A DNA stretch of 64,000 nucleotides from Patescibacteria group bacterium (GCA_020428645.1 JAGQMN010000001.1:532-64531), one strand, 5' to 3'. Positions 9,802-63,988 are shown, numbered from the stretch's first letter. Numbers and translations are program-made. The notes: generated from the letters alone by a model not told the origin.

Positions 9802-10412
9802 TGACGATTAAACTTATTTTCACCATATTTGCGATTATTTCTTATCTTATAGGTTTTGTCCCGTACCTTAAGGATATTGCACGCAAAAAAGTTCAACCAC
9901 ATGCTATTAGCTGGGCAGGATGGGGATTAACTACTCTTTTGGCATTTTTTGCTATGTCGTCCGAGCTGTTTAACTGGGCTGCGTTCATCGTCTTGGTAAA
10001 CTCATTAGCCTGTTTTGTGGTCGTTATCTTTTCGTATGTGAAAGGTGTAGCAGTAACTATATTTTCCCAGTACGACAGTATCTTTTTAGTATCTGGTTTA
10101 CTTGGGGTGGTGCTATGGCAGTATTTCAACAATCCTGATCTCGCGATTATTTTTGCTATTATTCCAGACTTATCGTTTGGTATTCCTACGATTATAAAAA
10201 CCTATACAAATCCTTTTTCTGAAACAAAATTAGCGTGGCTGATGTCAACGCTCTCGGGATTTTTTAGTATTTTTGCAATTTCGTATGTTTCGTTTACTGA
10301 AATTGCATACCCAATTTATTTATTTATATTTGATTTAACAGTTTTCTTATTGGTGACACAAATCATTAGATCACAAAAAAAGAAGAGCCTTGGGCGACAC
10401 GAATGTGTTTAG
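9801..10412 (+). CDS. Hypothetical polytopic membrane protein (203 aa)
   Basis: Five to six predicted TM helices. No motif I recognise. Confidence 0.5.
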   Translation: MTIKLIFTIFAIISYLIGFVPYLKDIARKKVQPHAISWAGWGLTTLLAFFAMSSELFNWAAFIVLVNSLACFVVVIFSYVKGVAVTIFSQYDSIFLVSGLLGVVLWQYFNNPDLAIIFAIIPDLSFGIPTIIKTYTNPFSETKLAWLMSTLSGFFSIFAISYVSFTEIAYPIYLFIFDLTVFLLVTQIIRSQKKKSLGRHECV

Positions 10413-10413
10413 C

Positions 10414-11007
10414 CTAATCTTCTTTTTTTTCTTTTCCCGTAAATTTCTCAAATAACACCTGTTCAGTAATGGGATCTAACTTGTTTGTCACGAGTACCAT
10501 GATTTCATCACGTAATCCCATATCTTCTTTCATGTTAATCATCATGTGTTCGAGGGGATAGGGGGTGATCCAGACAGAATTCTTTATCTGTACAAACTGT
10601 GCTTTTTTGAGGATGTAGCGAACGGCATCTTGATCTTTTTTGCGGGTGTCAGGAATATCAATAATAACCATGCGCCAGTATCCGTCCCAGGTTGTTGAAA
10701 TAAGGTGGCTCTGTGATGAGAGTTTAATACTGCGGAGCTTGTGTCGTCCTGATGAGGTTAACGAGAGAAATGATGATTGTTCAGTTTCGTACTCGGCTAG
10801 TATATCTTCATCTACCATTCGTTTAATAGCTCGGCTAATGGCGTATTTTGGTTTAGTAGTATGTGTTCCAGTGCCATTTTTTTCGATTAATGTTTCTATA
10901 TGTTCGATAATATCATCGCGTTTATAGGCACGTTTTTTTGATAACAGGCGTAAAATGAGTTCCTGTACGTTCATTTTTTGTTTAGATTTCATAACAAGAT
11001 ATAACAC
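10414..11007 (-). CDS. PaaX-like transcriptional regulator family protein
   Basis: The C-terminal WDGYWRMVIIDIPDTRKKDQDAVRYILKKAQFVQIKNSVW matches the PaaX C-terminal WDG-x-W...P motif. The N-terminus is winged-helix-like. Confidence 0.55.
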   Translation of the reverse strand: MLYLVMKSKQKMNVQELILRLLSKKRAYKRDDIIEHIETLIEKNGTGTHTTKPKYAISRAIKRMVDEDILAEYETEQSSFLSLTSSGRHKLRSIKLSSQSHLISTTWDGYWRMVIIDIPDTRKKDQDAVRYILKKAQFVQIKNSVWITPYPLEHMMINMKEDMGLRDEIMVLVTNKLDPITEQVLFEKFTGKEKKED

Positions 11008-23794: not shown

Positions 23795-25759
23795 ATGTCA
23801 AACGGGGAACAAGTCACCTACTTTGCAGAGACCGATTTTCGGAATAACCGCACGAAGTTTGGTATCAAAAACAAAGACCGTTCACGTCACGTCTACGTCA
23901 TCGGAAAGACGGGAATGGGGAAATCAACGCTCCTTGAAAATATGGCAGCGCAAGACATCCTTAATGGAGAAGGGATGTGTTTTATGGATCCCCATGGTTC
24001 AGCGATTGATACACTTCTTGAATACGTACCATCACATCGTGTGCGTGATATTGTGTACTTCGCACCTTTTGATACTGATTACCCTATTTCATTTAATGTA
24101 CTTGAAGCAGTTGAACCCGATCGACGCCACTTGGTTGTAGCTGGACTCATGGCATCGTTCAAGAAGATTTGGGTTGATGCCTGGTCTGCTCGTATGGAGT
24201 ACATTCTCTCAAACACCCTCCTTGCGCTCCTCGAATACCCGAATGCAACACTCCTTGGAGTCAATCGCATGCTCGCTGAGAAAGACTATCGCAATGATGT
24301 GATTAAACATGTGACTGATGCGTCAGTGCGTTCATTTTGGATTGATGAGTACAACAAATGGGATCCACGATACGCACGTGAAGCGGGGGCTGCTATTCAG
24401 AACAAAATCGGTCAATTTACGGCGAATCCATTGATTCGTAATATTATTGGGCAACAACACTCGTCCATCGATTTTCGAAAGATTATGGATGAGAAAAAGA
24501 TTCTCCTCGTAAACCTCTCGAAAGGACTCATTGGTGAATCCAATGGAAACCTTCTTGGGGGAATGCTCATTACCAAGTTGTTTCTTGGTGCTCTGTCGCG
24601 AGCCGATGTCGGTGCAACCAGGTTGAATCAACTCCCTGATTTCTTTTTCTTTGTGGACGAGTTTCAAAACTTTGCTAATGAATCGTTTGCTGACATTCTG
24701 TCTGAAGCACGTAAGTACAAGCTCAACCTTACGGTTGCTCATCAATACGTTGACCAAATGGAGGAATCAGTTGCATCGGCAATTTTTGGTAACGTGGGAA
24801 CGATGATCACCTTTCGTATTGGAGCAAACGATGCAGAAATCTTTGAAAAACAATTTGCTCCAACGTTTACTTCAGAAGACCTGGTGAACCTCGGTAAATT
24901 CCAGATTTACCTCTCATTGATGATTGACGGGATTGGATCTCGACCCTTTTCAGCACGCACCATTGCACCCGTTGAGCGACCACCTGTTTCTATGCGCGCG
25001 GAAATTATTCAATCATCGCGAGAACAGTTTGCACGACCACGGAAAGAAGTTGAAATGAGTATTACGGAATGGTACGAGCCAGTGAATAAACCTGAAAAAC
25101 GTACGTTTCGTAATGATGATGGGAGTATGCCAAAAGCGAATACCAACGCCACACCTTCAATATCACCCAAAAAAATTGAAAAACAGAGTTTCATTATTCC
25201 GAAGGGTGAACGAGATAATGGTTCTAGCCCTTTGAAAAAGGTCGCAAAAGAACTTGATGAAAAAGAAGCTGAACTTGAAATGAAGAAAATTGTTTCACCA
25301 AAGTTGAATAGCTTGCTTGATAAAATGGGAGGTGGTGAGGAAAAGAAAATTCTCCCAGAAGTTGTTGAAAATATACGCAAGCATGACGTAACATCAGAGC
25401 CACTTAAAAAAACAGGGAACGTTCAGACATCTGAAACAAAGATACCCGAATCGGTCACTCAACGTGCTGCCTCAGTCAATAAACAACAGCCAGCTACATC
25501 TGATCGCGGGGCAAAAGTAGATACCATGTCCTCTCTTCAAGAAGTTCTTAAAAAAGCTATGGGTGGGAAGCGTACTGTTCAAAAGCAGGTTCGCAAACAA
25601 CCGAACCAGTCTGGACCAACAATTCAACAACCTAAACAATCGAATCATGATACAACTCAACAACACAAACAAGATACAAGCACAATATCATCACCGCAAA
25701 CCAATACTGAACAAAAAAAAGAAGTACCAGAAGATGTACTTCGGGGTATTTTCAGTTAA
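23795..25759 (+). CDS. Type IV secretion coupling-protein-like ATPase (VirD4/TraD/TraG family), soluble, with a long low-complexity C-terminal tail
   Basis: Walker A HVYVIGKTGMGKST, Walker B FFFFVDEFQNF, and a downstream EARKYKLNLTVAHQYVDQ that resembles the coupling-protein ARKYG...(T/A)xQ motif. No N-terminal TM helix. The last ~230 aa are K/E/Q/T/S-rich and lack a domain I recognise. Confidence 0.55.
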   Translation: MSNGEQVTYFAETDFRNNRTKFGIKNKDRSRHVYVIGKTGMGKSTLLENMAAQDILNGEGMCFMDPHGSAIDTLLEYVPSHRVRDIVYFAPFDTDYPISFNVLEAVEPDRRHLVVAGLMASFKKIWVDAWSARMEYILSNTLLALLEYPNATLLGVNRMLAEKDYRNDVIKHVTDASVRSFWIDEYNKWDPRYAREAGAAIQNKIGQFTANPLIRNIIGQQHSSIDFRKIMDEKKILLVNLSKGLIGESNGNLLGGMLITKLFLGALSRADVGATRLNQLPDFFFFVDEFQNFANESFADILSEARKYKLNLTVAHQYVDQMEESVASAIFGNVGTMITFRIGANDAEIFEKQFAPTFTSEDLVNLGKFQIYLSLMIDGIGSRPFSARTIAPVERPPVSMRAEIIQSSREQFARPRKEVEMSITEWYEPVNKPEKRTFRNDDGSMPKANTNATPSISPKKIEKQSFIIPKGERDNGSSPLKKVAKELDEKEAELEMKKIVSPKLNSLLDKMGGGEEKKILPEVVENIRKHDVTSEPLKKTGNVQTSETKIPESVTQRAASVNKQQPATSDRGAKVDTMSSLQEVLKKAMGGKRTVQKQVRKQPNQSGPTIQQPKQSNHDTTQQHKQDTSTISSPQTNTEQKKEVPEDVLRGIFS

Positions 25760-27197
25760 ATTCTTTGTTCTCCTCCTTTTTATTTGTGTTCCTCATATAC
25801 TGCTTGCCCAAGTTGAGATTACTGAGGTAATGTATGATCACGAGGGTACCGATTCTGGTTTTGAATGGGTAGAAATCTATAATAGTGGAAGTAGTGATAT
25901 CGATATTGGATCGTGGTACTTTTTTGAAAATGACACGTACCACGGATTAACACCCGATGGATTTGTCTCGATCGGTGCGGGTGAACGTGCACTAATTGTT
26001 CAAAACCTTGAAAATATATATGCTGAATTTGGTTCATCACTTAACCTTGTGAAAAGTTCATTTTCGCTTAACAATACTGGCGAGACGATTGCGCTTGCTG
26101 ATCAGAATCGTACCACCCAAGATGAAATTACCTATTCAGCTGATGGCGGAGCGCTCGGTAATGGTAATAGCATACAACTTACAAACGGAATATGGATTGA
26201 AGCGTTACCTACACCAGGTAGTGTAAACGCAAGAGAAGGTGATCCTGGTGATACGAATAACGCGACAACATCCTCGTCTTCGACAAGTACAACAAAAAAA
26301 GAAGTAGTTGTTGATGACTACTACACTGGTTACCTTACCATAGAGAAGCAAGCAATCAGTGGTTCACCAACGAATATTGAAGCGTACGTTGTTCATACGC
26401 GTAATGGTCAAGATACAAAGCTCAAGAGGGGTGTCTTTTATCTTAATTTTGGTGATGGTTCTGTGTATACTTCGGACGAACGATTTGAAACACAACATGT
26501 GTACCAGTATCCTGGTGAATATCAGGTTGTTCTTGAATACTACCGGAGTATGCTTGCCCAAGAGGCAGGTGAAGATCCAAAGGTAATGATTAACAAACGC
26601 ATACAGGTACACGATCATGTTCTCTCGATTGTGGCTGTTGATGGTAGTGGTGGTGTTACCATTCACAATGGTGCATCCATACCTATTGATCTTGATGGAT
26701 GGAGTCTTGTATACGATAATCATACGTATACCTTTCCACGATACTTGATGCTTGCATCACAAGGAGAAGTGACCATTCCACGTACTATTCATAACCTGGG
26801 ATACGTACACGCTGGCAGTATTCGACTTTTGAATGAAATTGGTGAAATAATGCAGGTTGGTGTAGCAACACCACCCATTGCAATATATTCTGAACACGTA
26901 GAAGGGGATGATACCCTTGAAGAAGTACCTATCACCAGTGACGCAACTACAGCACTTGTGAATTTTTTGGCAGAACACCCCGATAAACAAGTTGTAGATT
27001 TTGGAGAGGCCTCACAGTCACAGAATCAAACTCAAGGCGATCAATCTACACATACGAGCCGCCTGTTTATTATGACACTTGTTGTGGGTGTTGTTGCACT
27101 CCTTCTTGTGCTCATTCGTGCACGTTACCGTACATCACAAATAGACGAACGAGGTGCTGAGCTTCAGGTAATTGGTGATATTGAATTAATAGAATAA
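25734..27197 (+). CDS. Lamin-tail-domain (LTD) protein with a C-terminal membrane anchor
   Basis: N-terminal signal/TM, then VEITEVMYDHEGTDSGFEWVEIYNSGSSDIDIGSWYF...LNNTGETIAL, which is an LTD signature. A second LTD-like segment follows (DGSGGVTIHNGASIPIDLDGWSLVYDN), and there is a C-terminal TM (LFIMTLVVGVVALLLVLI). Start set at the ATG at 25734, overlapping the upstream gene by 26 nt. Confidence 0.6.
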   Translation: MYFGVFSVKFFVLLLFICVPHILLAQVEITEVMYDHEGTDSGFEWVEIYNSGSSDIDIGSWYFFENDTYHGLTPDGFVSIGAGERALIVQNLENIYAEFGSSLNLVKSSFSLNNTGETIALADQNRTTQDEITYSADGGALGNGNSIQLTNGIWIEALPTPGSVNAREGDPGDTNNATTSSSSTSTTKKEVVVDDYYTGYLTIEKQAISGSPTNIEAYVVHTRNGQDTKLKRGVFYLNFGDGSVYTSDERFETQHVYQYPGEYQVVLEYYRSMLAQEAGEDPKVMINKRIQVHDHVLSIVAVDGSGGVTIHNGASIPIDLDGWSLVYDNHTYTFPRYLMLASQGEVTIPRTIHNLGYVHAGSIRLLNEIGEIMQVGVATPPIAIYSEHVEGDDTLEEVPITSDATTALVNFLAEHPDKQVVDFGEASQSQNQTQGDQSTHTSRLFIMTLVVGVVALLLVLIRARYRTSQIDERGAELQVIGDIELIE

Positions 27198-43225: not shown

Positions 43226-44266
<1,041 letters not shown>

Positions 44267-44270
44267 CACG

Positions 44271-44291
44271 AATCGCTACACGGTAGCGATT
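44271..44291 (+). terminator. Hairpin after dnaX (aatcgctac-acg-gtagcgatt)
   Basis: Perfect 9-bp stem followed by tatcatt. The T-run is weak. Confidence 0.35.
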
Positions 44292-44296
44292 TATCA

Positions 44297-44317
44297 TTGC
44301 CAGATCGTCTAATGGTA
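44297..44317 (+). repeat. 21-nt direct repeat identical to the 5' end of the downstream tRNA-Gln (acceptor 5' strand plus D-arm)
   Basis: ttgccagatcgtctaatggta is identical at 44297-44317 and 44488-44508. The sequences diverge immediately after. Confidence 0.7.
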
Positions 44318-44488
44318 TGGAATGAAATACTACCTGCGTAGTATTTCATCCAGTTCCGAGCATATGCGAGGAAATCACCGTTGTGAACTTGGTGAACAGG
44401 GGATAGGCTAGGTTTTGCTCAAAACCTGGAGTTTCCTTACATACGTGAAGTTATTTATGTATAAATATAAAATACTTCAATAAATTAT

Positions 44489-44559
44489 TGCCAGATCGTC
44501 TAATGGTAGGACTCCAGGTTTTGGTCCTGGCTATCTAGGTTCGAATCCTAGTCTGGCAG
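44489..44559 (+). tRNA. tRNA-Gln (anticodon UUG)
   Basis: Folded by hand into a cloverleaf. Acceptor TGCCAGA/TCTGGCA, D-stem GTCT/GGAC, anticodon stem CCAGG/CCTGG with loop TTTTGGT (anticodon TTG), T-arm CTAGG-TTCGAAT-CCTAG, discriminator G. CCA is not encoded. Confidence 0.8.
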
Positions 44560-44573
44560 CATATGTAAACAAA

Positions 44574-44605
44574 ACAGAATCCGAAAGGGTTCTGTTTTGC
44601 TTTTG
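44574..44605 (+). terminator. Intrinsic terminator downstream of tRNA-Gln
   Basis: acagaatcc-GAAA-gggttctgt stem with a GNRA loop, followed by ttttgcttttg. Confidence 0.5.
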
Positions 44606-44732
44606 CATACCTGTTCACGCTAGGATTCGAAAAGAGGTGCGCCCGAAGGCTGGCGTACGCCAGAAGCACCGGCGGGGTCGAGCGAATGAGATGTTTTGAG
44701 AACTCGTTCGAAAAAATATCCATGAGGGTGAC

Positions 44733-44752
44733 CGAATCCTAGTCTGGCAGCA
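44733..44752 (+). repeat. 20-nt direct repeat identical to the 3' end of tRNA-Gln (T-loop 3' half, T-stem, acceptor 3' strand, discriminator, CA)
   Basis: cgaatcctagtctggcagca is identical at 44542-44561 and 44733-44752. This is an att-like duplication. Confidence 0.7.
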
Positions 44753-44799
44753 CGCAAGGGTATCTACCTAGATACCTAAAAATGTTAAAATGGAGATAT

Positions 44800-45207
44800 A
44801 TGAGTAAAGATTACATACAAAACGTAGCGCCTGAAGATTACAAAAAGAGAGGTGTGTATACTCCAGCAAAAAAGATTGATATGGGGAACTTTTATCAAAT
44901 CTACGTGTCTGGTGTACAAGCGCCAAAAGATGAAAATCATAAGGTGGTAACAAATGACATTGAAGAGCAAACCAAATTGGTGTTTGAAGATATCAAGAAA
45001 ATACTAGAACAAGCTGGGGCAACGTTAGACGATGTGATAAAGGCAGTGATCTATGTAACTGATATGAATGAGTTTGATAAGGTCTCTGAAATTAGAGGTG
45101 AGTATTTTAAAAAATCTATGCCCGTAAGTACACTCGTTGAGGTAAATCGTATGACAAGGACTGGTGCTAAAATTGAGATCGAGGTAACAGCTATTGTGGC
45201 GAAATAA
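44800..45207 (+). CDS. ridA: RidA/YjgF-family reactive-intermediate deaminase
   Basis: YVSGVQAP...VIYVTDMNEFDKVSEIRGEYF...PVSTLVEVNRMTRTGAKIEIEVTAIV is the RidA signature pattern. Confidence 0.8.
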   Translation: MSKDYIQNVAPEDYKKRGVYTPAKKIDMGNFYQIYVSGVQAPKDENHKVVTNDIEEQTKLVFEDIKKILEQAGATLDDVIKAVIYVTDMNEFDKVSEIRGEYFKKSMPVSTLVEVNRMTRTGAKIEIEVTAIVAK

Positions 45208-45211
45208 TTTT

Positions 45212-45742
45212 ATGAATGCTTATATATTTCATGGTACAGAAGGAACACCAGACGAAAATTGGTTTCCTTGGTTAAAATCACAATTAGATAGTATTGGGAT
45301 CACTGCGGAAGTACCTCAACTATCAAACTCTAAAAACCCAAATGTAAACAAATGGCTTACCGAAGCTTCTGAATTTAAAACAGGAGAAGATACTATTTTG
45401 ATTGGACACAGTTTAGGCGCAGTCTTGATATTGAGAATGCTTGAACGAGGACACAAAGCAAAAGCGGTATATTTAGTTGCACCGTTTTTAGATGATCTGG
45501 GTTGGGAGGTATTAAAGGAATCTCTATTTTTTGCTGACAGTTTTGATTGGCATCAAATAAAGAAGCAATGTGAATATTTTGAAGTCTTTGCTTCAAAGAA
45601 TGACCCTTACGTATCTCTAGAAAATGTGAAAGAGGTTGCTGATAATTTAGAAGTTGAACCTCAGGTACTTGATGTGAATAAGCATTTCAATACAGAAGAT
45701 TTTCCATATCTTTTTGAAAGGATCAATCTACTCAACAAATAA
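45212..45742 (+). CDS. Alpha/beta hydrolase, YdeN/RBBP9-like serine hydrolase family
   Basis: IFHGTEG, then the nucleophile elbow GHSLGAV (GxSxG). About 177 aa, which is typical for this family. Confidence 0.65.
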   Translation: MNAYIFHGTEGTPDENWFPWLKSQLDSIGITAEVPQLSNSKNPNVNKWLTEASEFKTGEDTILIGHSLGAVLILRMLERGHKAKAVYLVAPFLDDLGWEVLKESLFFADSFDWHQIKKQCEYFEVFASKNDPYVSLENVKEVADNLEVEPQVLDVNKHFNTEDFPYLFERINLLNK

Positions 45743-45929
45743 TTTTTTTGTCTTTTAGCACGACTTTGGTTTTGATATTTCCCAACACCTCACGCTTCTC
45801 TAAAACTGATCCGTTTTTCAGTAGATATTTTAGATAGTTCCTCACATCGATATCCTTCACTTTGATATCAGTGTTTTCAGTATTCATTACCTCCTGAAAC
45901 TTCTTGAACCGCTTGATCTCATCTTTCAT
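45732..45929 (-). CDS. Hypothetical small protein (65 aa)
   Basis: ORF only. It overlaps the hydrolase stop. Confidence 0.2.
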   Translation of the reverse strand: MKDEIKRFKKFQEVMNTENTDIKVKDIDVRNYLKYLLKNGSVLEKREVLGNIKTKVVLKDKKIIC

Positions 45930-46115
45930 CCTCTTTTATTTCCTCAAAAACCCTTTAAAACATTGAAGTGGTTAGGTACTCAACCTAAGCACGCAGTAAC
46001 TCAAAAATCACCATACAAGAAAGGTGACCCCTTTATTTTAATTATGAATATAAAACATTGACAATATTTTAATATTTTAGTAAATTTAAATTAAATACTT
46101 TAAATTTCTCTAAAA

Positions 46116-56158: not shown

Positions 56159-59100
56159 ATGAACTACATCAAAAAATTTCGTGAACTGACAAAAAAAGAC
56201 GCTGATATCGCAGGAGGAAAGGGTGCCTCCCTTGGAGAAATGCTCAATGCTGGAATTCCCGTTCCTGATGGATTTGTGGTGACTGCCGATACTTTTGATT
56301 TCTTTCTTGCTGAAACTGATCTCGTTCAGGAAATTGGTGCTATTTTGAAAAAAGTGGATACCCAGGCAATTCACACTGTTGATGATGCATCTGAACAAAT
56401 TCAAAATCTGATTCGCAGTGCACAGATGCCTGAATCTGTGGCTTCTGAAATCCTCAAAGATTTTGATGAACTTGATACGGCTTACGTTGCAGTTCGTTCT
56501 TCGGCAACTGCCGAAGACGGTGCTGATCATGCATGGGCAGGGCAACTTGATTCGTACCTCAACACAACGAAAGATATGCTCCTCGAAAAAGTTCAGTCGT
56601 GTTGGGCATCACTGTTTACTCCACGGGCGATCTTTTACCGGTTTGAAAAAGGTCTTCACACCACTCACATCTCTGTTGCGGTGGTAATCCAGAAAATGGT
56701 GAACTCTGAAAAATCAGGGATTGCTTTTTCAGTGCATCCAGTGACTGAAGATTACAATCAGATGATTATCGAGGCAGGTCTTGGACTCGGCGAGGCTATT
56801 GTTTCTGGTTCGGTTACCCCCGATTCCTACGTAGTTACCAAAGACCCACAGGAAATTATCGATAGCAACGTTAATACTCAAACCAAGGCACTGTACCGTA
56901 CTGCCACAAAGGGTGACCACGGTTTCAACGAATGGAGAGAACTATCTGAAACCGAAGCTAATCAGCAGGTACTTGATAACACACAGATCATCGAGTTAGC
57001 AAACATTATTGAACGTATCGAAAATCACTACGGATTCCCATGTGATATTGAATGGGCGTATGAAAACAATACCTTCTTTATTGTCCAATCTCGACCAATT
57101 ACAACGCTATCGAATAAAACGGTAGACCTAAAAAAAAACGATAGTGTAGCAAAACTTACCTTTGAACGAGAGTATACACGGGATTTTTCAATAATTCTCG
57201 AAGATTTTTGGCATCACGGATTAATGAGTTGTTATCGTGATATTCTTCAATCTGAACCTCTACATGAAACCCCCCTCGTTACATATATACATGATGGTGT
57301 TGTTGAAACATGGCAAAATCGTCCATTCATCAATGATCTAAAGAAAAAAATTCTTGAACGTAATATTGCTGATCCATCTTTTCTTAATCCTATTATGGCG
57401 GACTATCGTGTTTTACTTGATACCTTTAAACAGTATCGGGCACAGAAAAAATTTGCACAATCACACAAAGATATTAAAGAACTCTTGGCGCAGTTTAAAG
57501 AGGGAATTCGTCTATGGATTCCGTGGGGGCATGCAGCCTATGTAGAAGAAACACCAAAAGATATTTGGGATAAAACTATGGCGCTTCGTGATATTGATAC
57601 ATTTTGGGATGATGCTGATTACGTATTACGGAAGAGTATTATTAATGTTTACCCGGAGCTTGAAGGGTGTGAGAATACTATCCTTGCGGAAGAGCTGTTA
57701 ACCGGTTCTGACAGCTTTGACAATAACCAGTACACAAAACGTCTCTCTGGGTATGTTCATATTCCTGGTCGGTCACACTGGTTTGGTGACTTAGCAAGCG
57801 CTGAAGAAAAGTACAGAGATCTACAATTTAACTACCCGACGAATGAGATTGTAAACAATGGTTTCAAAGGCGAAATCGCATATGCTGGTAATCAAGAAGT
57901 CATTACTGGTAAGGTTCGTATTATCAAGAGAAAAGACCAAGTACGTACATTACAAGATGGTGAGGTATTAGTCTCGCCAATGACAACACCCGACTTTGAA
58001 CCAGCAATGAAGCGTGCGGTAATCACTATTACCGATGAAGGTGGGATCACTTGTCATGCGGCAGTTGTTGCCAGAGAGATGAAGTTACCATGTATTACTG
58101 GAACCCGAATTGCTACTAGTTTTTTGAATGATGATGACACCGTTTCAGTAAATACAAAAACAGGAGTTGTGACTCGTATTGCATCTAAATTTCCTAATGG
58201 CGAATGTTTTAAAAACATGTCGACTCCAGATGCATGGAACTACACAGGGAAGTGGATTCAAAATCCACTATGTTCAAGTTTTTGGGCTGCGTATCACCAA
58301 ACTGATATTGTTCAGAAAATTTATCCTGATCGAGAATTTGGTATTGAGTTCAGCGTTGATGGTCACTGGCGAGAGAACCTTGTTGATATCACATATATGA
58401 AATCAGAAATCATCAGAAGATATCAAGATGGTAGTCTAGATAAATTTGTTCAAAATTTCGATTCGGTAGGTAATGAGATTCAAAATGTACTCTTAAAAGA
58501 GATTAATGAAATTAGTATTAATACATTACCACTTCAAGAGATCTTTGCTTGCTATCAAGATTTGTTCACTTATTGGGGTTTTCTAACATTCTTAGGTGAC
58601 TTAACCATGCCAGTTGCAAACGAGGTAAATCTTGTTTCCTCTGATGGTGAATTTTTCGAGATGACTCATCCTCATCTTCGTCTAACCTGGATTGAATATG
58701 AAGAAGAAAAAACACGTGAAATCGCTCAAGAAGTAATTAATTTAGGTGCAGGTGTTTGTAATATCGAACTCATAAAGAAAAATAAAACTATTTCAAAGCT
58801 TGTCAAAGAATATTTTGAAAATTTTGCGTGGGTTGGTGTTAACAAATGGGAAGGAGAGGGAATGAACGATGAGAAATTAGTTGAACGAGTAAATCAGGCA
58901 ATTGAAAACATTAAAGAAGGAAACTTTTTTGAATCTCGTTCTCCTAATGAATCTATTTTTAAAGAACTTAATCCACTCGTGCAACTTGGTGTATCTACTG
59001 CGTATTGGCGTGCGACCTGTGCTAGTTTAGCAGCTCGCTTTGAGTATCTGATACAAGAGCGAATGAGTAAGTTGGCAAAGAAACATAAGATTACTTACAA

Positions 59101-62100
59101 TGATATTATTTATCTTAGTAAGCACGAGGTTCTTATCCTTGAAAATGAGGGAACCTTACTTGTTCCAGTAAAAGATATACAAGAACGTAAAGAAGGTTTT
59201 GCGTGTTTTGTTGATGTTGAAGGTACACTCAATGTCGTGTCAGGTAATAATAGGGTGTATCAAAAACTCAAAAAGCTCTATGGTAGTGCACCAAAGTTAG
59301 AGTTTAATAAAAGTTTTATTGAGGGAATGCCAGCATGCAAAGGTTTTGCTGAAGGGCGAGTTACAATTGTTTCCAGTAAAGATGATTTCCATAAGTTTCA
59401 AAAAGGGAATATTCTAGTCTCCGAAGAAACAACACCTGCTTTCGTACCTTTAATGAGACAAGCGTCAGCAATTGTAACTGATCGTGGAGGTATCACCTCG
59501 CATGCTGCTATTGTTTCTAGGGAACTTGGTAAACCTTGCATTATTGCTACTAAAAACGCTACTCAAATTTTAAAAGATGGAGATTTGGTTGAGGTGGATG
59601 CTGATAACGGAATTGTGCGTATCATCGAAACATCCCAAAAAAAAACTCAAAATGAGGTAGAACAAGATATTGTTGATAAGGTTGCTAAACAAAAATATCA
59701 TTATATTCACAAACGTTATCGCACTCCATTCTATATGGAACTCATGTGGAAAGGCGCAAGTGTTTCTTGTAAAGATTCAAAAATCCCTTTTGATTATTTA
59801 GTTGAGGGTCTTTATCTTGATACAGAGATTGGGTTTGAAGATAGGGATTGGAATAATGCTAAAAAGATTACTTGGGAATTTACACATCAAAATCCTAAAT
59901 TGTTTTTAAAGATGATTGAAGATGCGTACTCAATCCAAACATCTATTCGTAAATCAATAAAAAAAATTACTCAAGATATTGACAAGGTTAATAAACAAGA
60001 TGTCGTTAGGTTTTGGCAAGAATATGCAAGACGTATGCACGCATTTGGACAGTATCTTCTTCCTCCGTTATTTATCGAATCGATTCTAGAGGAACGTATA
60101 CAAAAAGCAATTACACAAGTATTATCAAAACATGATTTCAATGAAGTGTTTCGGATTTTAACAACCCCTATGAAATTAGGAACTGCTGTTTTAGAAGAAC
60201 TGTCAATTCTTGATATTGCAATTGCAGAAAAGAATAAAAAACCCGTAGATGGTTTAATAGAAAAACATTTAGAAGATTTTGGTTGGACGAAAAATAATTC
60301 TCATGATGGGAAATTTAATACCATCAATGATATTGAAGACAGTGTTCAAAAAGTTTTGAGTGAAAGCGATCCATCAATTTTAAAACAACACATTGAAGAA
60401 GATATTGCTCACACCAAAGAGAAATTTGATTCATATTTCTCCATGTTTGACAAAGAGACGCAAAGTCTCATTGAAATATTACAAGAATCTATTTATTATC
60501 GTAGCTGGCGTACTGAACGTTACTATAAAAATGCATATTATTTAGATTCACTATTCCGTAAAACCGCAGAGATTTTAAACATGCAAATGTATTCTGATAT
60601 TTTCTTTTTAACGATTGATGAAATAATTTCACTACTCAAGGGCAAGAGTTTTGATTTCAAAGATCTTATACAAAATCGCAAATTAGGTTATGCAGTTTAT
60701 GCTACTGAAACAGGCACACACGTTTTTCAAGGCGAGGATGTATTGAAAATGAAAGAATCTGTAAAATTTTTTGATGAATCCCAACAGACAGATGTCATTA
60801 TCGGACAACAAGCATATCCAGGTGTCGTATCGGGCAGAGCCCGTGTTATTTTGGACAAGAAAAACTTGGATAGAGTTCAAGAAGGAGATATTCTTATTAC
60901 TCCAGCCACAACAGTTGATTATGTTCCTACATTAAAAAAAGTGAAAGCCATTGTAACCGATGAGGGTGGTGTACTTTGCCATGCGTCTGTTATTTCGCGG
61001 GAATTACGCATACCGTGTATCATTGGTACGAAAAATGGTTCCAAGATTATTCAAGATAATAGTGTAGTTGAAGTTGATGCCAATACAGGAACAGTACATA
61101 TTCTTGACAAAGAGCAAAAAGAAAATACGCACATAAATTTTGACCTCAACCAAGAACCGTTGGTGTGGGGTCCTGTTGGCATGAACTCTATACTATCGTT
61201 TACTACTTGGGTACCTGGCTTATACAATGGTTTTTCAAAACAATTTCCAGGATATTCGTGGCCGAAACTACTCGCACTGTTTAAGGAATATTTCTTTGCA
61301 TGGATTCACGAGTTGCAAGATATTGAAAAACATGGAGCTGATGTTTTTGTGGATCTCATGATGAATCCAAAGGTACGAGAACAAGCACGCAGTGAATGGG
61401 AACAATCAAAGGACCGTTTACGTGATGTTGAAGAGATACTTGAACAGCACAATCTTACTCAGCTTAGTGGTGACGAGTACTTGAACCTATGGCGCCAAAT
61501 GGAAACAGCCATTACAGATTTTTGGGTGTGGTCGAGTTTGCCTGAACTTGCTAACTATGGATCAATCAATGTTTTGAAAGAGCGCTTAAAAAACAACGTA
61601 CCTAAAGACAATATAATGTCGGTATTAGAAATACTCACCGCACCCGAAGATATTTCGTTTTTTCAACAAGAGGAAATTGACCTTGCACGGACTCATGATC
61701 TTGAGGCACATCAGCAGAACTACTTTTGGTTAAACAACAGCTACGCACACATTGAGGTTACACCTGTTTCATTTTTTGAAAAACGAAAAGCAGTGTTATC
61801 ACCAAGCATTGAAACTGAAATAGCCGAACGCATGGCGTCAGTCAAAGAAGCTAAACAGAATGTCCAAAAACAATATAATCTCTCGGACGAAATTATGGAG
61901 ATGGCGTACCGTATTACTGATGGAATTATTTGGCAGGATAAACGAAAGAAAGAGGTATGGGTATATCTCCACTACGAGGAGCAAATGTTCCATGAAGCGG
62001 CACGACGAACCAATACAGATGTACAAGACGTAAAGTTACTTCTTTTTGAAGAATTTGAGCCTTTTATTAAGGGTGAGATTAATATCGATGATATTAAAAA

Positions 62101-63988
62101 CCGGACTGATGGTTTCCTGGTATACATTGATGAACACCAAAACATGAAAACTTATGGTTCTAATATTGCGAACTACTACTGGAATCACTACTTTCCTTCG
62201 GAAAAAGATCTCAGTATTACCTCTTTGAAAGGTACTGTTGCGAGTAAAGCCGAATCCGGCAATGTACAAGGTAGTGTAAGAATTATTCTCGATGCGACAA
62301 AGTGCAAAGATTTTTGTCCTGGTGATGTTTTAGTGACTACGATGACAACACCCGAATTTGTATTTCTTATGAAACAAGCGTCAGCGATTGTGACTGACAC
62401 TGGAGGATTGACCTCACACGCTGCGATTGTTGCGCGTGAGCTTGGTAAACCATGTATTATCAATACGAAATCAGCGACCCGTGCGCTAGAAGATGGTGAC
62501 TTGATTGAAGTTAATACTGATGTAGGTGAGGTTACTATTATAGAACGATCGAATACCTCACATTCGCTCCCCATTAATCCACATGACTACAAATTTATTG
62601 GGCTTTGGAAGGAAGATTTGTTTCCAGCATACTTTTGGGCTCGGTGGTTTGATGTAAAGAAAAATAATAAACTTGGATTTACAGAAATCACTAATAGTGG
62701 AGCACTTATTTTGAAAGGTGGGAACTTTTTTTGGAGTCATCAAATGCGAGATCAAATGAAAGCACTCCTTGATCGAGTTGTTGAAACAAAAGATACCTCA
62801 CTGTTTAAGAATTTATACAAACAAGCTAATAAATGTTTTAGGGACACAATGAAAAAGGCCGACACATTGGCAAAAGAAGAACCAGATACTGAAAATTTTG
62901 AAACATTCATTCAATTAGGTCGTGACCTCATGTATTATTGGACCTTTGGCGCTTCAATGGCAGAGTTTGTTGATGAGTATATTATCGAGCATGCATCCAG
63001 AGAACATATTAAACCTTCTGATGTAGTTGGGTATGTAGACATACCAGAGACTGAACTTATGCGTCAGCAGTCGGCACTTCGTGAATTTCATCAGGAATTT
63101 AAAAAACGAGGTTGGCTTGATAGAATCGATGGTGATCGAGAATCACTTATTCATGATATTCAACAAGATAAGAAACTCTACAAAAAATTAGAGAAACATA
63201 TGTATGAGTATGGCTGGATTGAAATGTTGAACTATGTTGGTGACGTTATAACCTTTGATAGATTCCTTACCATTATTGGAGGTGTTGGAGAAGAGCAGAA
63301 ACCCCAAGAAAAGAAAAAAGTTTCAGATACATTTAATTTTATTCTTAATATCGCTTCCTACATTGGTTACGCACGTCAAGCTGGAGCGGAGTATTCTTCA
63401 GTGTTTTCCTATAAACTACATGACTACTTAAAAGCTACAGCAGAAAAAATAAATGTATCTTACTCAGAAATGTTAAACCTGACACCGGAAGAAATTATAC
63501 TTGCACTCTCAAATAACTTAGATCCACAGCCACTACTACAACGACGAGCAAATAGAAATTGGTTAGTGTGGTGGGACAAACATCAACATGCACAGGTTGT
63601 AGATGATTCAGATATTATCAATAAATTGTACGAGAAAATGGTTCCTATTATAGAGGATGATCAACGTCAACTTGTTGGTCAAACTGGTAATAAGGGTAAG
63701 GTTGTTGGAAAAGTGAGTGTAATTATGGCCACCGAGGATTTTGGAGCATTCAAAGAGGGTAACATTTTAGTCACTACTATGACGACACCAGATTTCGTAG
63801 TCTTAATGCAAAAAGCATCGGCAATCGTGACTGATATCGGAGGTTTACTGTCCCATGCATCAATTGTCTCACGCGAACTTGGTAAACCTTGTGTTATTGG
63901 TACAAAATTTGCTACTCAAATACTCAAAGATGGTGATATGGTTGAAGTTGATGCGGATAACGGAGTTGTTAAGATTCTAGAAAAATAA
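56159..63988 (+). CDS. Giant PEP-synthase/rifampin-phosphotransferase-like protein (2609 aa): one N-terminal PPDK_N-type ATP-binding domain plus five tandem phosphohistidine swivel modules
   Basis: N-terminus DIAGGKGASLGEMLNAGIPVPDGFVVT...AVRSSATAEDG is the PPDK_N/PEP-synthase nucleotide-binding domain (about aa 1-315). There are five copies of the mobile-domain motif GG(I/L/V)(T/L)(S/C)HA(A/S)(I/V)V(S/A)RE(L/M)...P, with His codons at 58055, 59501, 60980, 62417 and 63854, each preceded by a ~390-aa spacer domain. There are no internal stops and no PEP/pyruvate TIM-barrel motifs. Confidence 0.75.
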   Translation: MNYIKKFRELTKKDADIAGGKGASLGEMLNAGIPVPDGFVVTADTFDFFLAETDLVQEIGAILKKVDTQAIHTVDDASEQIQNLIRSAQMPESVASEILKDFDELDTAYVAVRSSATAEDGADHAWAGQLDSYLNTTKDMLLEKVQSCWASLFTPRAIFYRFEKGLHTTHISVAVVIQKMVNSEKSGIAFSVHPVTEDYNQMIIEAGLGLGEAIVSGSVTPDSYVVTKDPQEIIDSNVNTQTKALYRTATKGDHGFNEWRELSETEANQQVLDNTQIIELANIIERIENHYGFPCDIEWAYENNTFFIVQSRPITTLSNKTVDLKKNDSVAKLTFEREYTRDFSIILEDFWHHGLMSCYRDILQSEPLHETPLVTYIHDGVVETWQNRPFINDLKKKILERNIADPSFLNPIMADYRVLLDTFKQYRAQKKFAQSHKDIKELLAQFKEGIRLWIPWGHAAYVEETPKDIWDKTMALRDIDTFWDDADYVLRKSIINVYPELEGCENTILAEELLTGSDSFDNNQYTKRLSGYVHIPGRSHWFGDLASAEEKYRDLQFNYPTNEIVNNGFKGEIAYAGNQEVITGKVRIIKRKDQVRTLQDGEVLVSPMTTPDFEPAMKRAVITITDEGGITCHAAVVAREMKLPCITGTRIATSFLNDDDTVSVNTKTGVVTRIASKFPNGECFKNMSTPDAWNYTGKWIQNPLCSSFWAAYHQTDIVQKIYPDREFGIEFSVDGHWRENLVDITYMKSEIIRRYQDGSLDKFVQNFDSVGNEIQNVLLKEINEISINTLPLQEIFACYQDLFTYWGFLTFLGDLTMPVANEVNLVSSDGEFFEMTHPHLRLTWIEYEEEKTREIAQEVINLGAGVCNIELIKKNKTISKLVKEYFENFAWVGVNKWEGEGMNDEKLVERVNQAIENIKEGNFFESRSPNESIFKELNPLVQLGVSTAYWRATCASLAARFEYLIQERMSKLAKKHKITYNDIIYLSKHEVLILENEGTLLVPVKDIQERKEGFACFVDVEGTLNVVSGNNRVYQKLKKLYGSAPKLEFNKSFIEGMPACKGFAEGRVTIVSSKDDFHKFQKGNILVSEETTPAFVPLMRQASAIVTDRGGITSHAAIVSRELGKPCIIATKNATQILKDGDLVEVDADNGIVRIIETSQKKTQNEVEQDIVDKVAKQKYHYIHKRYRTPFYMELMWKGASVSCKDSKIPFDYLVEGLYLDTEIGFEDRDWNNAKKITWEFTHQNPKLFLKMIEDAYSIQTSIRKSIKKITQDIDKVNKQDVVRFWQEYARRMHAFGQYLLPPLFIESILEERIQKAITQVLSKHDFNEVFRILTTPMKLGTAVLEELSILDIAIAEKNKKPVDGLIEKHLEDFGWTKNNSHDGKFNTINDIEDSVQKVLSESDPSILKQHIEEDIAHTKEKFDSYFSMFDKETQSLIEILQESIYYRSWRTERYYKNAYYLDSLFRKTAEILNMQMYSDIFFLTIDEIISLLKGKSFDFKDLIQNRKLGYAVYATETGTHVFQGEDVLKMKESVKFFDESQQTDVIIGQQAYPGVVSGRARVILDKKNLDRVQEGDILITPATTVDYVPTLKKVKAIVTDEGGVLCHASVISRELRIPCIIGTKNGSKIIQDNSVVEVDANTGTVHILDKEQKENTHINFDLNQEPLVWGPVGMNSILSFTTWVPGLYNGFSKQFPGYSWPKLLALFKEYFFAWIHELQDIEKHGADVFVDLMMNPKVREQARSEWEQSKDRLRDVEEILEQHNLTQLSGDEYLNLWRQMETAITDFWVWSSLPELANYGSINVLKERLKNNVPKDNIMSVLEILTAPEDISFFQQEEIDLARTHDLEAHQQNYFWLNNSYAHIEVTPVSFFEKRKAVLSPSIETEIAERMASVKEAKQNVQKQYNLSDEIMEMAYRITDGIIWQDKRKKEVWVYLHYEEQMFHEAARRTNTDVQDVKLLLFEEFEPFIKGEINIDDIKNRTDGFLVYIDEHQNMKTYGSNIANYYWNHYFPSEKDLSITSLKGTVASKAESGNVQGSVRIILDATKCKDFCPGDVLVTTMTTPEFVFLMKQASAIVTDTGGLTSHAAIVARELGKPCIINTKSATRALEDGDLIEVNTDVGEVTIIERSNTSHSLPINPHDYKFIGLWKEDLFPAYFWARWFDVKKNNKLGFTEITNSGALILKGGNFFWSHQMRDQMKALLDRVVETKDTSLFKNLYKQANKCFRDTMKKADTLAKEEPDTENFETFIQLGRDLMYYWTFGASMAEFVDEYIIEHASREHIKPSDVVGYVDIPETELMRQQSALREFHQEFKKRGWLDRIDGDRESLIHDIQQDKKLYKKLEKHMYEYGWIEMLNYVGDVITFDRFLTIIGGVGEEQKPQEKKKVSDTFNFILNIASYIGYARQAGAEYSSVFSYKLHDYLKATAEKINVSYSEMLNLTPEEIILALSNNLDPQPLLQRRANRNWLVWWDKHQHAQVVDDSDIINKLYEKMVPIIEDDQRQLVGQTGNKGKVVGKVSVIMATEDFGAFKEGNILVTTMTTPDFVVLMQKASAIVTDIGGLLSHASIVSRELGKPCVIGTKFATQILKDGDMVEVDADNGVVKILEK

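What the first reader, a model, noticed from the sequence alone, without database searches (positions are those of the whole stretch)
44297..44752. tRNA-Gln flanked by partial direct repeats of its own 5' (21 nt) and 3' (20 nt) ends: att-like scars
The first 21 nt of the tRNA are repeated exactly 191 bp upstream. The last 20 nt, including the discriminator and CA, are repeated exactly 191 bp downstream. The intervening segments are unrelated to each other. A duplicated tRNA 3' end is the classic footprint of site-specific integration into a tRNA gene (attL/attR), but the enclosed segment here is only ~170 bp. That suggests a decayed or miniature integrated element, or repeated integration and excision at this tRNA. 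The symmetric ~191-bp spacing of both partial copies is odd. No integrase is visible nearby.
Basis: seen in the sequence. Interest (0 to 1): 0.55.

Follow-up and report, generated by a model that had tools for sequence, protein, structure and literature searches.

The report
Integration scars flanking a tRNA-Gln gene
The only tRNA-Gln gene in this window, from a Patescibacteria (Paceibacteria-like) genome, is a landing site for mobile DNA, and the partial copies of its two ends are the leftover borders of two tiny gene-less insertions, a known kind of footprint seen here in an unusually compact form.

Summary
An exact 22-nt copy covering tRNA positions 1-20 lies 191 bp upstream, and an exact 20-nt copy covering positions 54-73 plus the base after them lies 191 bp downstream. 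Neither is expected by chance.

The att-scar reading is largely supported.
- Relatives show the downstream unit (171 bp plus repeat) as a discrete insertion. What follows the window's second copy follows the tRNA directly in another lineage.
- The same non-coding module ("A") and a second one ("B") occur in other lineages between the tRNA and a copy of that lineage's own tRNA 3' end, sometimes in tandem with gene-carrying islands.
- Contigs 100% identical to the window up to the tRNA end continue into an 8.7-kb copper island with a large serine recombinase.
- A 64-residue remnant of such a recombinase lies at 45741-45932 in the window.
- The window holds no intact integrase.

The 5' side has lineage-specific inserts and empty sites in relatives, but no mechanism is shown. 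The equal 191-bp spacing looks coincidental (relatives: 60/189, 137/45).

Exact antisense copies of tRNA segments in the flanks, matching each lineage's own tRNA, remain unexplained. So does the conserved hairpin architecture of module A.

This is a new member of a known kind, of moderate interest.

The parts
43226..44266 (+). dnaX (DNA polymerase III gamma/tau). It is the conserved left neighbour and was used as the anchor to collect related loci.
   Evidence: Pfam DNA_pol3_delta2, AAA and DNA_pol3_gamma3. Orthologues lie next to tRNA-Gln in most relatives.
44272..44290 (+). Hairpin directly after the dnaX stop codon (ATCGCTAC-acg-GTAGCGAT). In 'empty' relatives a comparable hairpin is followed within a few nt (3-21) by the tRNA.
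   Evidence: Sequence. Compared with L034, L005, L004 and L071.
44293..44317 (+). Displaced 5' fragment of the tRNA gene. It holds 5 nt of leader plus tRNA positions 1-20. It matches 44484-44508 at 24 of 25 positions, and 44296-44317 is exact.
   Evidence: 0 matches expected by chance.
44318..44483 (+). Upstream non-coding insert (166 nt). It contains hairpin 44321-44350 and terminator-like hairpin 44408-44429. The 3' arm region of the second hairpin (44420-44432) is the exact antisense of tRNA positions 23-35. An AT-rich stretch follows and abuts the tRNA.
   Evidence: It is identical in L018 and L044-L046. It is absent from L004, L005, L034, L071 and L075. Other inserts take its place in the L019/L064-L070, L001/L048, L058 and L012 lineages.
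44489..44560 (+). Intact tRNA-Gln(UUG) gene. CCA is not encoded: the gene ends ...TCTGGCAGCA followed by T.
   Evidence: ARAGORN. Rfam RF00005, 60.3 bits.
44542..44561 (+). Direct repeat copy 1. It runs from inside the T loop to the 3' end of the tRNA (attL-type copy).
44559..44560 (+). Inferred crossover (GC, within the short shared core CAGC) used by the copper island and a related island in sibling strains.
   Evidence: L018 and L044-L046 are 100% identical to the window up to 44560 and unrelated after it. L038 and L040 join foreign DNA (...gtgttagccagc) to the window from 44557 onward. The exact dinucleotide is inferred.
44562..44732 (+). Module A, a 171-nt non-coding insert. It comprises intrinsic terminator 44570-44599, an antisense copy of the T arm at 44620-44631, a branched hairpin at 44636-44670, and a highly conserved block at 44671-44735 that includes the motif GTGACCGA.
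   Evidence: Homologues sit in the same position in L064/L068/L019 (79% DnaX lineage), L008 (53%) and L048/L057 (86%). Empty sites are in L053 and L002.
44733..44752 (+). Direct repeat copy 2. This is the displaced 3' end of the tRNA (attR-type copy).
44753..44778 (+). Older right flank of the tRNA (cgcaagggtatctacctagatacc, a small hairpin). A homologous sequence directly follows the tRNA in L053.
44800..45742 (+). RidA-family gene (44800-45207) and serine-hydrolase gene (45212-45742). They are probably cargo of an older, decayed recombinase island. They were not found next to tRNA-Gln in any relative.
   Evidence: Pfam. tblastn hits only contigs of the window's own species. The layout of cargo (+) converging on a recombinase (-) matches L044. 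The cargo status is inferred.
45741..45932 (-). Remnant of a large serine recombinase gene. Only the last ~64 residues remain.
   Evidence: 48% identity to residues 372-435 of the L044 recombinase. tblastn E = 1e-12; BLASTP E = 2e-18.

Best explanation
The tRNA-Gln(UUG) gene after dnaX is a recurrent target for site-specific integration in this Paceibacteria lineage. The window carries the borders of at least two small insertions that no longer hold any gene, or never did.

Downstream. A unit recombined inside the T loop. The unit consisted of a replacement copy of the tRNA's last 20 nt, its own terminator and the non-coding module A. The gene was regenerated, and the original 3' end (44733-44752) was pushed 191 bp away, still attached to its old flank.

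Upstream. An analogous event after tRNA position 20 brought a replacement leader plus positions 1-20. The old 5' end (44293-44317) stayed next to the dnaX terminator.

Shown: the repeats; the discreteness of the units; their presence or absence across lineages; the tandem arrays; recombinase islands at the same tRNA end; and a recombinase remnant in the window.

Inferred: that a recombinase made the two small units rather than homologous or illegitimate recombination; which recombinase it was (a T-loop-cutting serine recombinase as in Dehalococcoides, or an unseen tyrosine integrase); the order of events (RidA/hydrolase island first, module A later, copper island last in some strains); and that the units are deletion remnants or trans-mobilised mini-elements.
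For: 1. Both repeats are exact, and none is expected by chance.

2. Three filled-versus-empty comparisons:
- the window has tRNA, A, repeat, then cgcaagggtatctacc..., while L053 has the tRNA followed directly by cacagggtatactacc...;
- L068 has tRNA, A, repeat, then aatcaatttttacttaaaaacac..., while L002 has the tRNA followed directly by that flank;
- L048 has tRNA, B, repeat, then 'flank C', while L075 and L004 have the tRNA followed directly by flank C.

3. Modules A and B are each bounded by a copy of the local tRNA 3' end that starts in the T loop. This holds in lineages whose tRNA sequences differ (L008: AGCCCCTGTCCGGCAGT).

4. Tandem arrays are present. L048 has a 137-bp repeat (tRNA 3' end + B + repeat) around a 3.2-kb three-gene segment, and L057 is the same minus that segment. 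L004 repeats the 3' end plus flank C. L058 has a third repeat copy beyond an AAA_13 gene.

5. Recombinases occupy the site. A 439-aa large serine recombinase closes an 8.7-kb copper island that starts exactly at the tRNA end, in three independent contigs 100% identical to the window upstream. A second one (494 aa, 35% identical) abuts the tRNA end in L078, L079, L082 and L083 but not in L075-77, L080, L081 or L084. A 75%-identical relative lies in the same layout next to tRNA-Asn.

6. A recombinase remnant lies in the window at 45741-45932.

7. The displaced 3' fragments share a motif, G(T/C)GACCG(A), that is not in the tRNA. This ties them to one family of element ends.

8. There is published precedent. 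Dehalococcoides ssrA islands have serine recombinases, a 20-bp direct repeat of the target's 3' end that starts in the T loop, an extra conserved motif upstream of the repeat, tandem islands and integrase-less units (PMC3146451). The general rule of a regenerated target plus a displaced fragment is in PMC4383910 (abstract).
Against: - Neither small unit is associated with an integrase.
- No empty site for either unit was found in the window's own species. The empty sites come from lineages with 65-86% DnaX identity.
- The recombinase islands actually seen cross over at the very 3' end (shared core about 4 nt) and leave only diverged 3'-like fragments. The L088 island next to tRNA-Asn has no direct repeat of 9 nt or more. 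So the enzyme that made the 20-nt repeats is not identified.
- A 191-bp circle is too small to be a plausible free intermediate.
- Replacement of a tRNA's 5' end by an element is uncommon, to my knowledge.
- Integration alone does not predict the exact antisense copies of tRNA segments or the conservation of module A (3' block 97% identical between lineages whose DnaX is 79% identical).
- All relatives are metagenome contigs, and joins at a shared 72-nt tRNA can be chimeric. L036 probably is.
Confidence: 0.68

Rival explanations
1. The flanks are functional RNA, or folded DNA, rather than debris. Leader and trailer segments complementary to the tRNA pair with it or with each other, and module A is a structured RNA with a tRNA-like 3' tail. 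Together they would control maturation, stability or use of tRNA-Gln, or form a folded recombination substrate.
For: - Exact antisense copies follow each lineage's own tRNA sequence: window 13 and 12 nt; L008 12 nt; L014/L029 10 nt; L001, L002 and L058 14-18 nt.
- In the upstream hairpins of L001, L002 and L058 the sense arm has decayed while the antisense arm stays exact.
- The segments fold well below shuffled controls: z = -5.1 downstream, -4.7 upstream, -8.7 for the whole region.
- In hairpin 44636-44670 all stems differ in sequence between the window and L068, yet each copy can still form an outer stem enclosing two small hairpins.
- The 3' block of A is 97% identical across lineages whose DnaX is only 79% identical.
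Against: - Rfam gives no match even at E = 10.
- Only two clearly compensatory pairs could be counted, from two distinct sequences.
- The modules are absent from many close relatives that keep the same tRNA, so they are dispensable.
- A terminator separates the tRNA from the rest of A.
- The z-scores are inflated by the repeats themselves.
- High identity of the 3' block fits recent horizontal transfer equally well, and mosaic copies exist.
Confidence: 0.12
2. Local replication or repair errors produced the partial copies without any site-specific recombinase. These would be tandem or inverted (fold-back) duplications around the tRNA, followed by decay. The parts overlapping the tRNA would be kept exact by gene conversion from the constrained gene.
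For: - 44540-44631 is one ~92-nt imperfect palindrome centred on the terminator loop.
- Hairpins built from a sense and an antisense copy of tRNA segments occur upstream in several lineages.
- The equal 191-bp period hints at a duplication register.
Against: - No residual similarity exists between the tRNA and the interiors of the two units, or between the two units (p = 0.19 and 0.58).
- The same modules appear with different right flanks in different lineages, and as discrete insertions relative to empty sites. This needs transfer or insertion, not local duplication.
- The 191/191 equality is not conserved: 60/189 in L068 and 137/45 in L012.
Confidence: 0.1
3. The outer fragments are the two halves of a split, permuted or intron-containing second tRNA-Gln gene. 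Its 5' half (44298-) and 3' half (-44752) would be joined at the RNA level.
For: The outer fragments carry complementary acceptor strands (TGCCAGA / TCTGGCA). The antisense T-arm copy at 44620-44629 can pair with 44733-44742 to give a T-stem-like helix (pair I15).
Against: - ARAGORN with introns allowed and relaxed scores finds nothing, and Rfam finds nothing.
- The anticodon arm and the 3' strand of the D stem are missing from the outer pieces.
- The 5' and 3' fragments occur independently of each other in relatives: L008 has only the 3' one, and L053 has neither 3' unit.
- No bacterial machinery for such joining is known (my knowledge).
Confidence: 0.02

Closest known systems
Genomic islands in tRNA/tmRNA genes, with a regenerated target and a displaced fragment (Islander-type, mostly tyrosine integrases; PMC4383910)
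   Same: There is an intact tRNA gene at one border and an identical fragment of its end in direct orientation at the other. The identity block runs from the T loop to the 3' end. The site is used repeatedly.
   Different: The enclosed DNA is only 166-171 bp with no integrase or any other gene. A second scar lies on the 5' side. No tyrosine integrase was seen in any of the ~97 related loci for which gene or Pfam information was available.
Dehalococcoides ssrA genomic islands with the serine recombinase DsiB (PMC3146451)
   Same: - Serine-recombinase islands sit at a single-copy tRNA-like gene.
- There is a 20-bp direct repeat of the target's 3' end that begins in the T loop.
- An extra conserved motif lies just upstream of the repeat and is absent from the target.
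- Islands occur in tandem arrays downstream of the target.
- Many units lack an integration module.
   Different: The target is tRNA-Gln, not ssrA. The host is Patescibacteria. The units are far smaller. The recombinase islands I could map cross over at the extreme 3' end, not in the T loop. Any relation of these recombinases to CcrB/DsiB was not tested.
Cis-mobilizable elements (CIMEs) and accretion at ICE/IME attachment sites in streptococci. Reviewed in PMC5704250, listed but not read here; the concept is also used in PMC3146451.
   Same: The units are bounded by attL- and attR-type repeats and encode neither recombination nor transfer functions. They lie in tandem with recombinase-bearing elements at the same site.
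   Different: Mobilisation in trans is untested here. Known CIMEs are kilobases long (my recollection), whereas these are under 200 bp.
SCCmec / ccr elements at the 3' end of rlmH (orfX). This rests on my own knowledge; the ccr analogy is drawn in PMC3146451.
   Same: Large serine recombinases integrate at the 3' end of a conserved single-copy gene. They leave short direct repeats, composite tandem arrays and ccr-less pseudo-elements.
   Different: The target there is a protein-coding gene, and the host group and recombinase clade differ. No 5'-side scar is known there.

Membership tests
tRNA-gene-targeted integrated element (regenerated target + displaced fragment) | An intact target tRNA gene lies at one end. 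| tested here: met
   tRNA-Gln at 44489-44560, 60.3 bits.
tRNA-gene-targeted integrated element (regenerated target + displaced fragment) | A displaced fragment identical to the tRNA end lies in direct orientation at the other end. | tested here: met
   20 of 20 nt at 44733-44752 and 22 of 22 nt at 44296-44317, with 0 expected by chance.
tRNA-gene-targeted integrated element (regenerated target + displaced fragment) | An integrase gene lies inside the element. | tested here: not met
   The 166- and 171-bp units hold no gene. The ORF across A is not conserved as protein. There is no intact recombinase in 64 kb. Only a remnant lies outside the unit at 45741-45932.
tRNA-gene-targeted integrated element (regenerated target + displaced fragment) | An unoccupied site exists in related genomes. 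| tested here: met
   L053 and L002 are empty for module A. L075 and L004 are empty for module B. L004, L005, L034, L071 and L075 are empty upstream. None of these is from the window's own species.
tRNA-gene-targeted integrated element (regenerated target + displaced fragment) | Excision to a circular form with a reconstituted attP. | not testable with these tools
   This needs raw reads or an experiment.
Cis-mobilizable / decayed element (CIME-like) | Both att-type borders are kept and no recombination or transfer genes are present. | tested here: met
   Exact repeats and no genes.
Cis-mobilizable / decayed element (CIME-like) | The borders are related to those of a recombinase-bearing element at the same site. 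| tested here: inconclusive
   The GACCG(A) motif upstream of the 3'-like fragments is shared by module A, module B, L048, L004 and the copper island. The motif is short, its spacing varies (20-32 nt), and the sequences are not independent.
Cis-mobilizable / decayed element (CIME-like) | The unit is mobilised in trans by a resident recombinase. | not testable with these tools
   There is only indirect support: the same modules occur with different right flanks in different lineages.
Large-serine-recombinase integration (attP x attB, 2-bp crossover) | A recombinase with Resolvase, Recombinase and zinc-ribbon domains lies at the element border. | tested here: met
   Met for the neighbouring islands in sibling strains: L044 (439 aa) and L078 (494 aa). 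Not met for the two small units.
Large-serine-recombinase integration (attP x attB, 2-bp crossover) | The junctions share only a very short core. | tested here: met
   Copper-island junctions: left TCTGGCAGC|CAGG, right ...TTAGCCAGC|ATATG, shared core CAGC. The 20-nt repeats of module A do not fit a 3'-end crossover. They would need a T-loop crossover plus an element-borne copy of the 3' end.
Split, permuted or intron-containing tRNA gene | The outer pieces together encode all tRNA arms. | tested here: not met
   There is no anticodon arm or D-stem 3' strand. ARAGORN with introns allowed and at relaxed score finds nothing.

The most novel reading that the evidence does not exclude
Modules A and B and the upstream hairpins may not be dead scars. 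They could be a family of miniature, structure-bearing elements that copy or track the host tRNA-Gln sequence in both sense and antisense. They would act through nucleic-acid pairing with the tRNA gene or transcript. One possibility is a folded-DNA or RNA-assisted attachment site that lets gene-less units insert at the T loop or D loop using a recombinase supplied in trans. Another is leader/trailer pairing that gates tRNA-Gln maturation. The evidence does not exclude this. Antisense copies match each lineage's own tRNA. The antisense arms stay exact while the neighbouring sense arms decay. Module A keeps its hairpin architecture while the sequence changes.
Probability: 0.1. Interest if true: 0.7.

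Novelty: new member of a known kind. Interest (0 to 1): 0.35.

Why it matters
It marks tRNA-Gln next to dnaX as a gene-exchange hot spot in Patescibacteria, organisms with tiny genomes whose routes of horizontal transfer are poorly known. Cargo seen at this one site includes copper resistance, a RidA/hydrolase pair, and putative defence or toxin genes (an AAA_13 ATPase and an RHS/Colicin_D toxin).

It also points to a very large family of ~440-aa serine recombinases in this group that use tRNA 3' ends (tRNA-Gln and tRNA-Asn) as landing sites. Such enzymes are of practical interest as genome-integration tools.

For assembly and annotation, it explains why contigs of these organisms so often stop at this tRNA.

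The sub-200-bp gene-less units with conserved structure, and the antisense tRNA copies, are the only parts that could lead somewhere new.

Tried and rejected
1. Tandem triplication of a 191-bp unit. Rejected: local alignment finds no similarity beyond chance between the tRNA and the unit interiors, or between the two units, and the spacing is not conserved in relatives.

2. Pseudo-tRNA, intron-containing tRNA or tmRNA. ARAGORN finds none at relaxed settings. Rfam finds only the tRNA, even at E = 10.

3. Phage or viral origin. blastn of module A against phage records gave no match. Four exact-pattern scans of viral contigs gave nothing: two for module A, one for module B, one for the tRNA 3' end.

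4. L036 as a same-species variant of the upstream insert. Rejected: its first 84 nt are L019-lineage sequence (100% identical over the 50-nt insert tested), so it may be a chimera joined at the shared tRNA.

5. An attR-like fragment of the older island at about 45966-45998 (TTAGG-tactcaa-CCTAA-GCACGCAG). It looks tRNA-3'-like, but the alignment to the L044 border is no better than shuffles (score 20 vs 19 +/- 2.7). Not claimed.

6. A promoter in the upstream insert (TTACAT-17-TATAAA, read by eye). The consensus scan does not call it. Left as a guess.

7. A protein in module A. The 62-aa minus-strand ORF has a single database relative. It is conserved only where the DNA is conserved and differs elsewhere. 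The contig of that relative could not be fetched.

8. More copies of module A through further DnaX relatives. Their contigs stop at the tRNA.

Full report
**Context**

The window is a cellular genome of the Patescibacteria (Paceibacteria-like). The gene order around the finding is seryl-tRNA synthetase, an FtsQ-like gene, Dus, a 167-aa ORF, dnaX, the tRNA, a RidA-family gene and a serine hydrolase. DnaX relatives come from MAGs named Paceibacteria, Pacebacteria or Patescibacteria. The window holds one tRNA gene, tRNA-Gln(UUG), at 44489-44560.

**The observation**

- tRNA positions 1-20 recur exactly at 44298-44317. The exact match extends to 22 nt (44296-44317), or 25 nt with one mismatch, so it includes a few bases of leader.
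- The last 20 nt, CGAATCCTAGTCTGGCAGCA, recur exactly at 44733-44752.
- Both start-to-start spacings are 191 bp. Shuffles give no match even with three mismatches allowed.
- The two intervening segments are unrelated to each other, and apart from the repeats they are unrelated to the tRNA.
44420-44432 is the reverse complement of tRNA 23-35, and 44620-44631 is the reverse complement of tRNA 52-63.
- Neither flank is called as a pseudo-, intron-containing or tm-RNA gene. Rfam finds nothing else, even at E = 10.
- The layout recurs in independent assemblies: upstream in L018 and L044-L046, downstream in L036-L043.

**Relatives**

I used DnaX as the anchor and collected about 85 loci. Four results matter.

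1. The downstream unit is a discrete insertion.
- In the window the second repeat copy is followed by cgcaagggtatctacctagatacc. In L053 (DnaX 86% identical) the tRNA is followed directly by the homologous cacagggtatactacctagtatcc.
- L068 (79%) has the same module A plus a repeat, followed by a flank that follows the tRNA directly in L002.
- A second module, B (~95 nt plus a 19-nt repeat), stands in the same relation to 'flank C': L048 is filled, L075 and L004 are empty.
- Each repeat matches the local tRNA, including L008, whose tRNA sequence is different.

2. The units stack.
- L048 has tRNA, B, repeat, then 3.2 kb holding three genes, then a diverged 3' fragment, B, a repeat and an A-like module.
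- L057 is the same without the 3.2-kb segment.
- L004 and L058 show further repeat copies beyond small gene sets.

3. Recombinase islands use the same tRNA end.
- Contigs L018 and L044-L046 are 100% identical to the window for up to 11.3 kb and diverge exactly after 44560. They continue into an 8.7-kb copper island (CsoR, CopA, DsbA-like, multicopper oxidase, DUF305) closed by a 439-aa large serine recombinase.
- L038 and L040 show a right junction of such an island fused to the window at 44557. This gives a shared core of only CAGC.
- In another lineage a 494-aa recombinase abuts the tRNA end in four contigs and is absent from six.
- The 439-aa family is very large. At least 8000 relatives score E <= 1e-40, and where named they are from Patescibacteria or Parcubacteria.
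- A 75%-identical member sits in the same layout next to tRNA-Asn.

4. The window keeps a 64-residue C-terminal remnant of such a recombinase at 45741-45932. It converges on the RidA/hydrolase pair as the intact gene does on its cargo. RidA and the hydrolase are found next to tRNA-Gln only in this species. No intact integrase is present anywhere in the 64 kb.

**The 5' side**

Many relatives have the tRNA a few bases after the dnaX hairpin: L004, L005, L034, L071 and L075. Others have different inserts.
- The L019/L064-70 lineage has 50 nt plus a 10-nt 5' repeat.
- L001/L048, L002 and L058 have a ~200-nt region containing a hairpin made of a decayed sense copy and an exact antisense copy of tRNA 1-18.
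- L012/L026 have 115 nt plus a 22-nt repeat, with a different tRNA sequence and a different genomic context.

So 5' partial copies recur. I found no recombinase or same-species empty site for them.

**Most likely history (inferred)**

1. An island carrying RidA, the hydrolase and a serine recombinase entered at the tRNA 3' end and decayed.
2. A unit recombined in the T loop. It supplied a new 3' end with its own terminator plus module A, and it displaced the old 3' end by 191 bp.
3. An analogous event after position 20 supplied a new leader and 5' end.
4. In some strains the copper island then entered between the tRNA and module A.

The closest published parallel is the Dehalococcoides ssrA islands. 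They have serine recombinases, a 20-bp repeat that starts in the T loop, an extra conserved motif upstream of the repeat, tandem arrays and units without integration genes (PMC3146451). Here the displaced fragments likewise share a non-tRNA motif, G(T/C)GACCG(A).

The enzyme that produced the 20-nt repeats is not identified. The islands I could map cross over at the extreme 3' end and leave only diverged fragments.

**The 191/191 symmetry**

The repeat lengths differ (25 vs 20 nt), so the non-repeated inserts are 166 and 171 nt. Relatives show 60/189 (L068) and 137/45 (L012). I treat the equality as coincidence.

**What integration does not explain**

- Antisense copies of tRNA segments occur in several lineages, and each matches its own tRNA.
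- In the window, 44540-44631 forms a ~92-nt imperfect palindrome centred on the terminator loop. Its T-arm complement is perfect, but its middle has decayed.
- Module A keeps an outer stem with two small hairpins at 44636-44670 although every stem differs in sequence between the window and L068.
- The 3' block of module A is 97% identical between lineages whose DnaX is 79% identical.
- A database ORF spanning a third copy shows a mosaic of window-type and L064-type parts.

Possible causes are fold-back duplication with gene conversion, inversions between inverted sites (the tRNA lies inverted relative to dnaX in L031 and L020), or selected pairing. I could not decide between them. With only two to four distinct copies, covariation is not testable.

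**Caveats**

- All comparison sequences are metagenome contigs. Many end at the tRNA or at the repeats: L047 at 44318, and L050, L051, L054, L066, L069 and L072 at the tRNA end.
- One contig, L036, is probably chimeric at the tRNA.
- The key junctions are each seen in several independent assemblies.

**Verdict**

It belongs to the known class of integration scars at tRNA genes. It is noteworthy for its miniature, two-sided form, its host group and the serine recombinases involved.

Noticed in passing
window 56159-63988 (+), runs off the window end: An ORF of at least 2609 aa combines a PPDK_N domain, five PEP-utilizers mobile-domain matches and an Epimerase_2 fragment. This is an unusually large and repetitive fusion.
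   Followed up: no
window 45741-45932 (-): A 64-residue C-terminal remnant of a large serine recombinase, 48% identical to the recombinase of the copper island in sibling strains. It lies directly after the serine-hydrolase gene.
   Followed up: yes
L044 11336-20260 (also L045, L046, L018): An 8.7-kb copper-resistance island (CsoR, CopA, DUF3105, DsbA-like, multicopper oxidase, DUF305, 439-aa serine recombinase) is inserted exactly at the tRNA-Gln 3' end in strains otherwise identical to the window. With the island the tRNA gene ends GCCA, so CCA is encoded. In the window it does not.
   Followed up: partly
L088 and L089 (recombinase at L088 4299-5621; tRNA-Asn at 9803-9877, minus strand): A 75%-identical recombinase lies in a methyltransferase-rich island with the same layout next to tRNA-Asn. 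The recombinase family has at least 8000 relatives at E <= 1e-40, and those that carry a name are from Patescibacteria/Parcubacteria.
   Followed up: partly
L058 7048-7730 (also L059-L063): A ~640-bp insert inside the 3' end of dnaX supplies a new C-terminus. The displaced old dnaX end and terminator follow it. The insert holds a 93-aa ORF containing a diverged inverted copy of tRNA-Gln positions 1-20 (TACCATTAtgttATCTGGCA).
   Followed up: no
L058 8515-13047: Downstream of tRNA-Gln lie an AAA_13 ATPase bounded by a third copy of the tRNA 3' repeat (at 10996) and a 2023-aa RHS protein with a Colicin_D domain. This looks like defence or toxin cargo at the same hot spot.
   Followed up: no
L031 555-626 and L020 2872-2943: In these two relatives tRNA-Gln lies inverted relative to dnaX, so inversions also happen at this locus.
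   Followed up: no
window 23795-27197: A TrwB/TraG-like coupling-protein homologue is followed by a lamin-tail-domain protein.
   Followed up: no
window 10414-11007 (-): A 197-aa protein with a PaaX central Cas2-like domain lies next to grpE and dnaK.
   Followed up: no
window 44620-44631, 44420-44432; L008 5275-5286; L014 6069-6078; L001 5096-5110; L058 about 7585: Exact antisense copies of segments of the local tRNA-Gln lie in its flanks, and each matches its own lineage's tRNA sequence. Integration scars alone do not explain this.
   Followed up: partly
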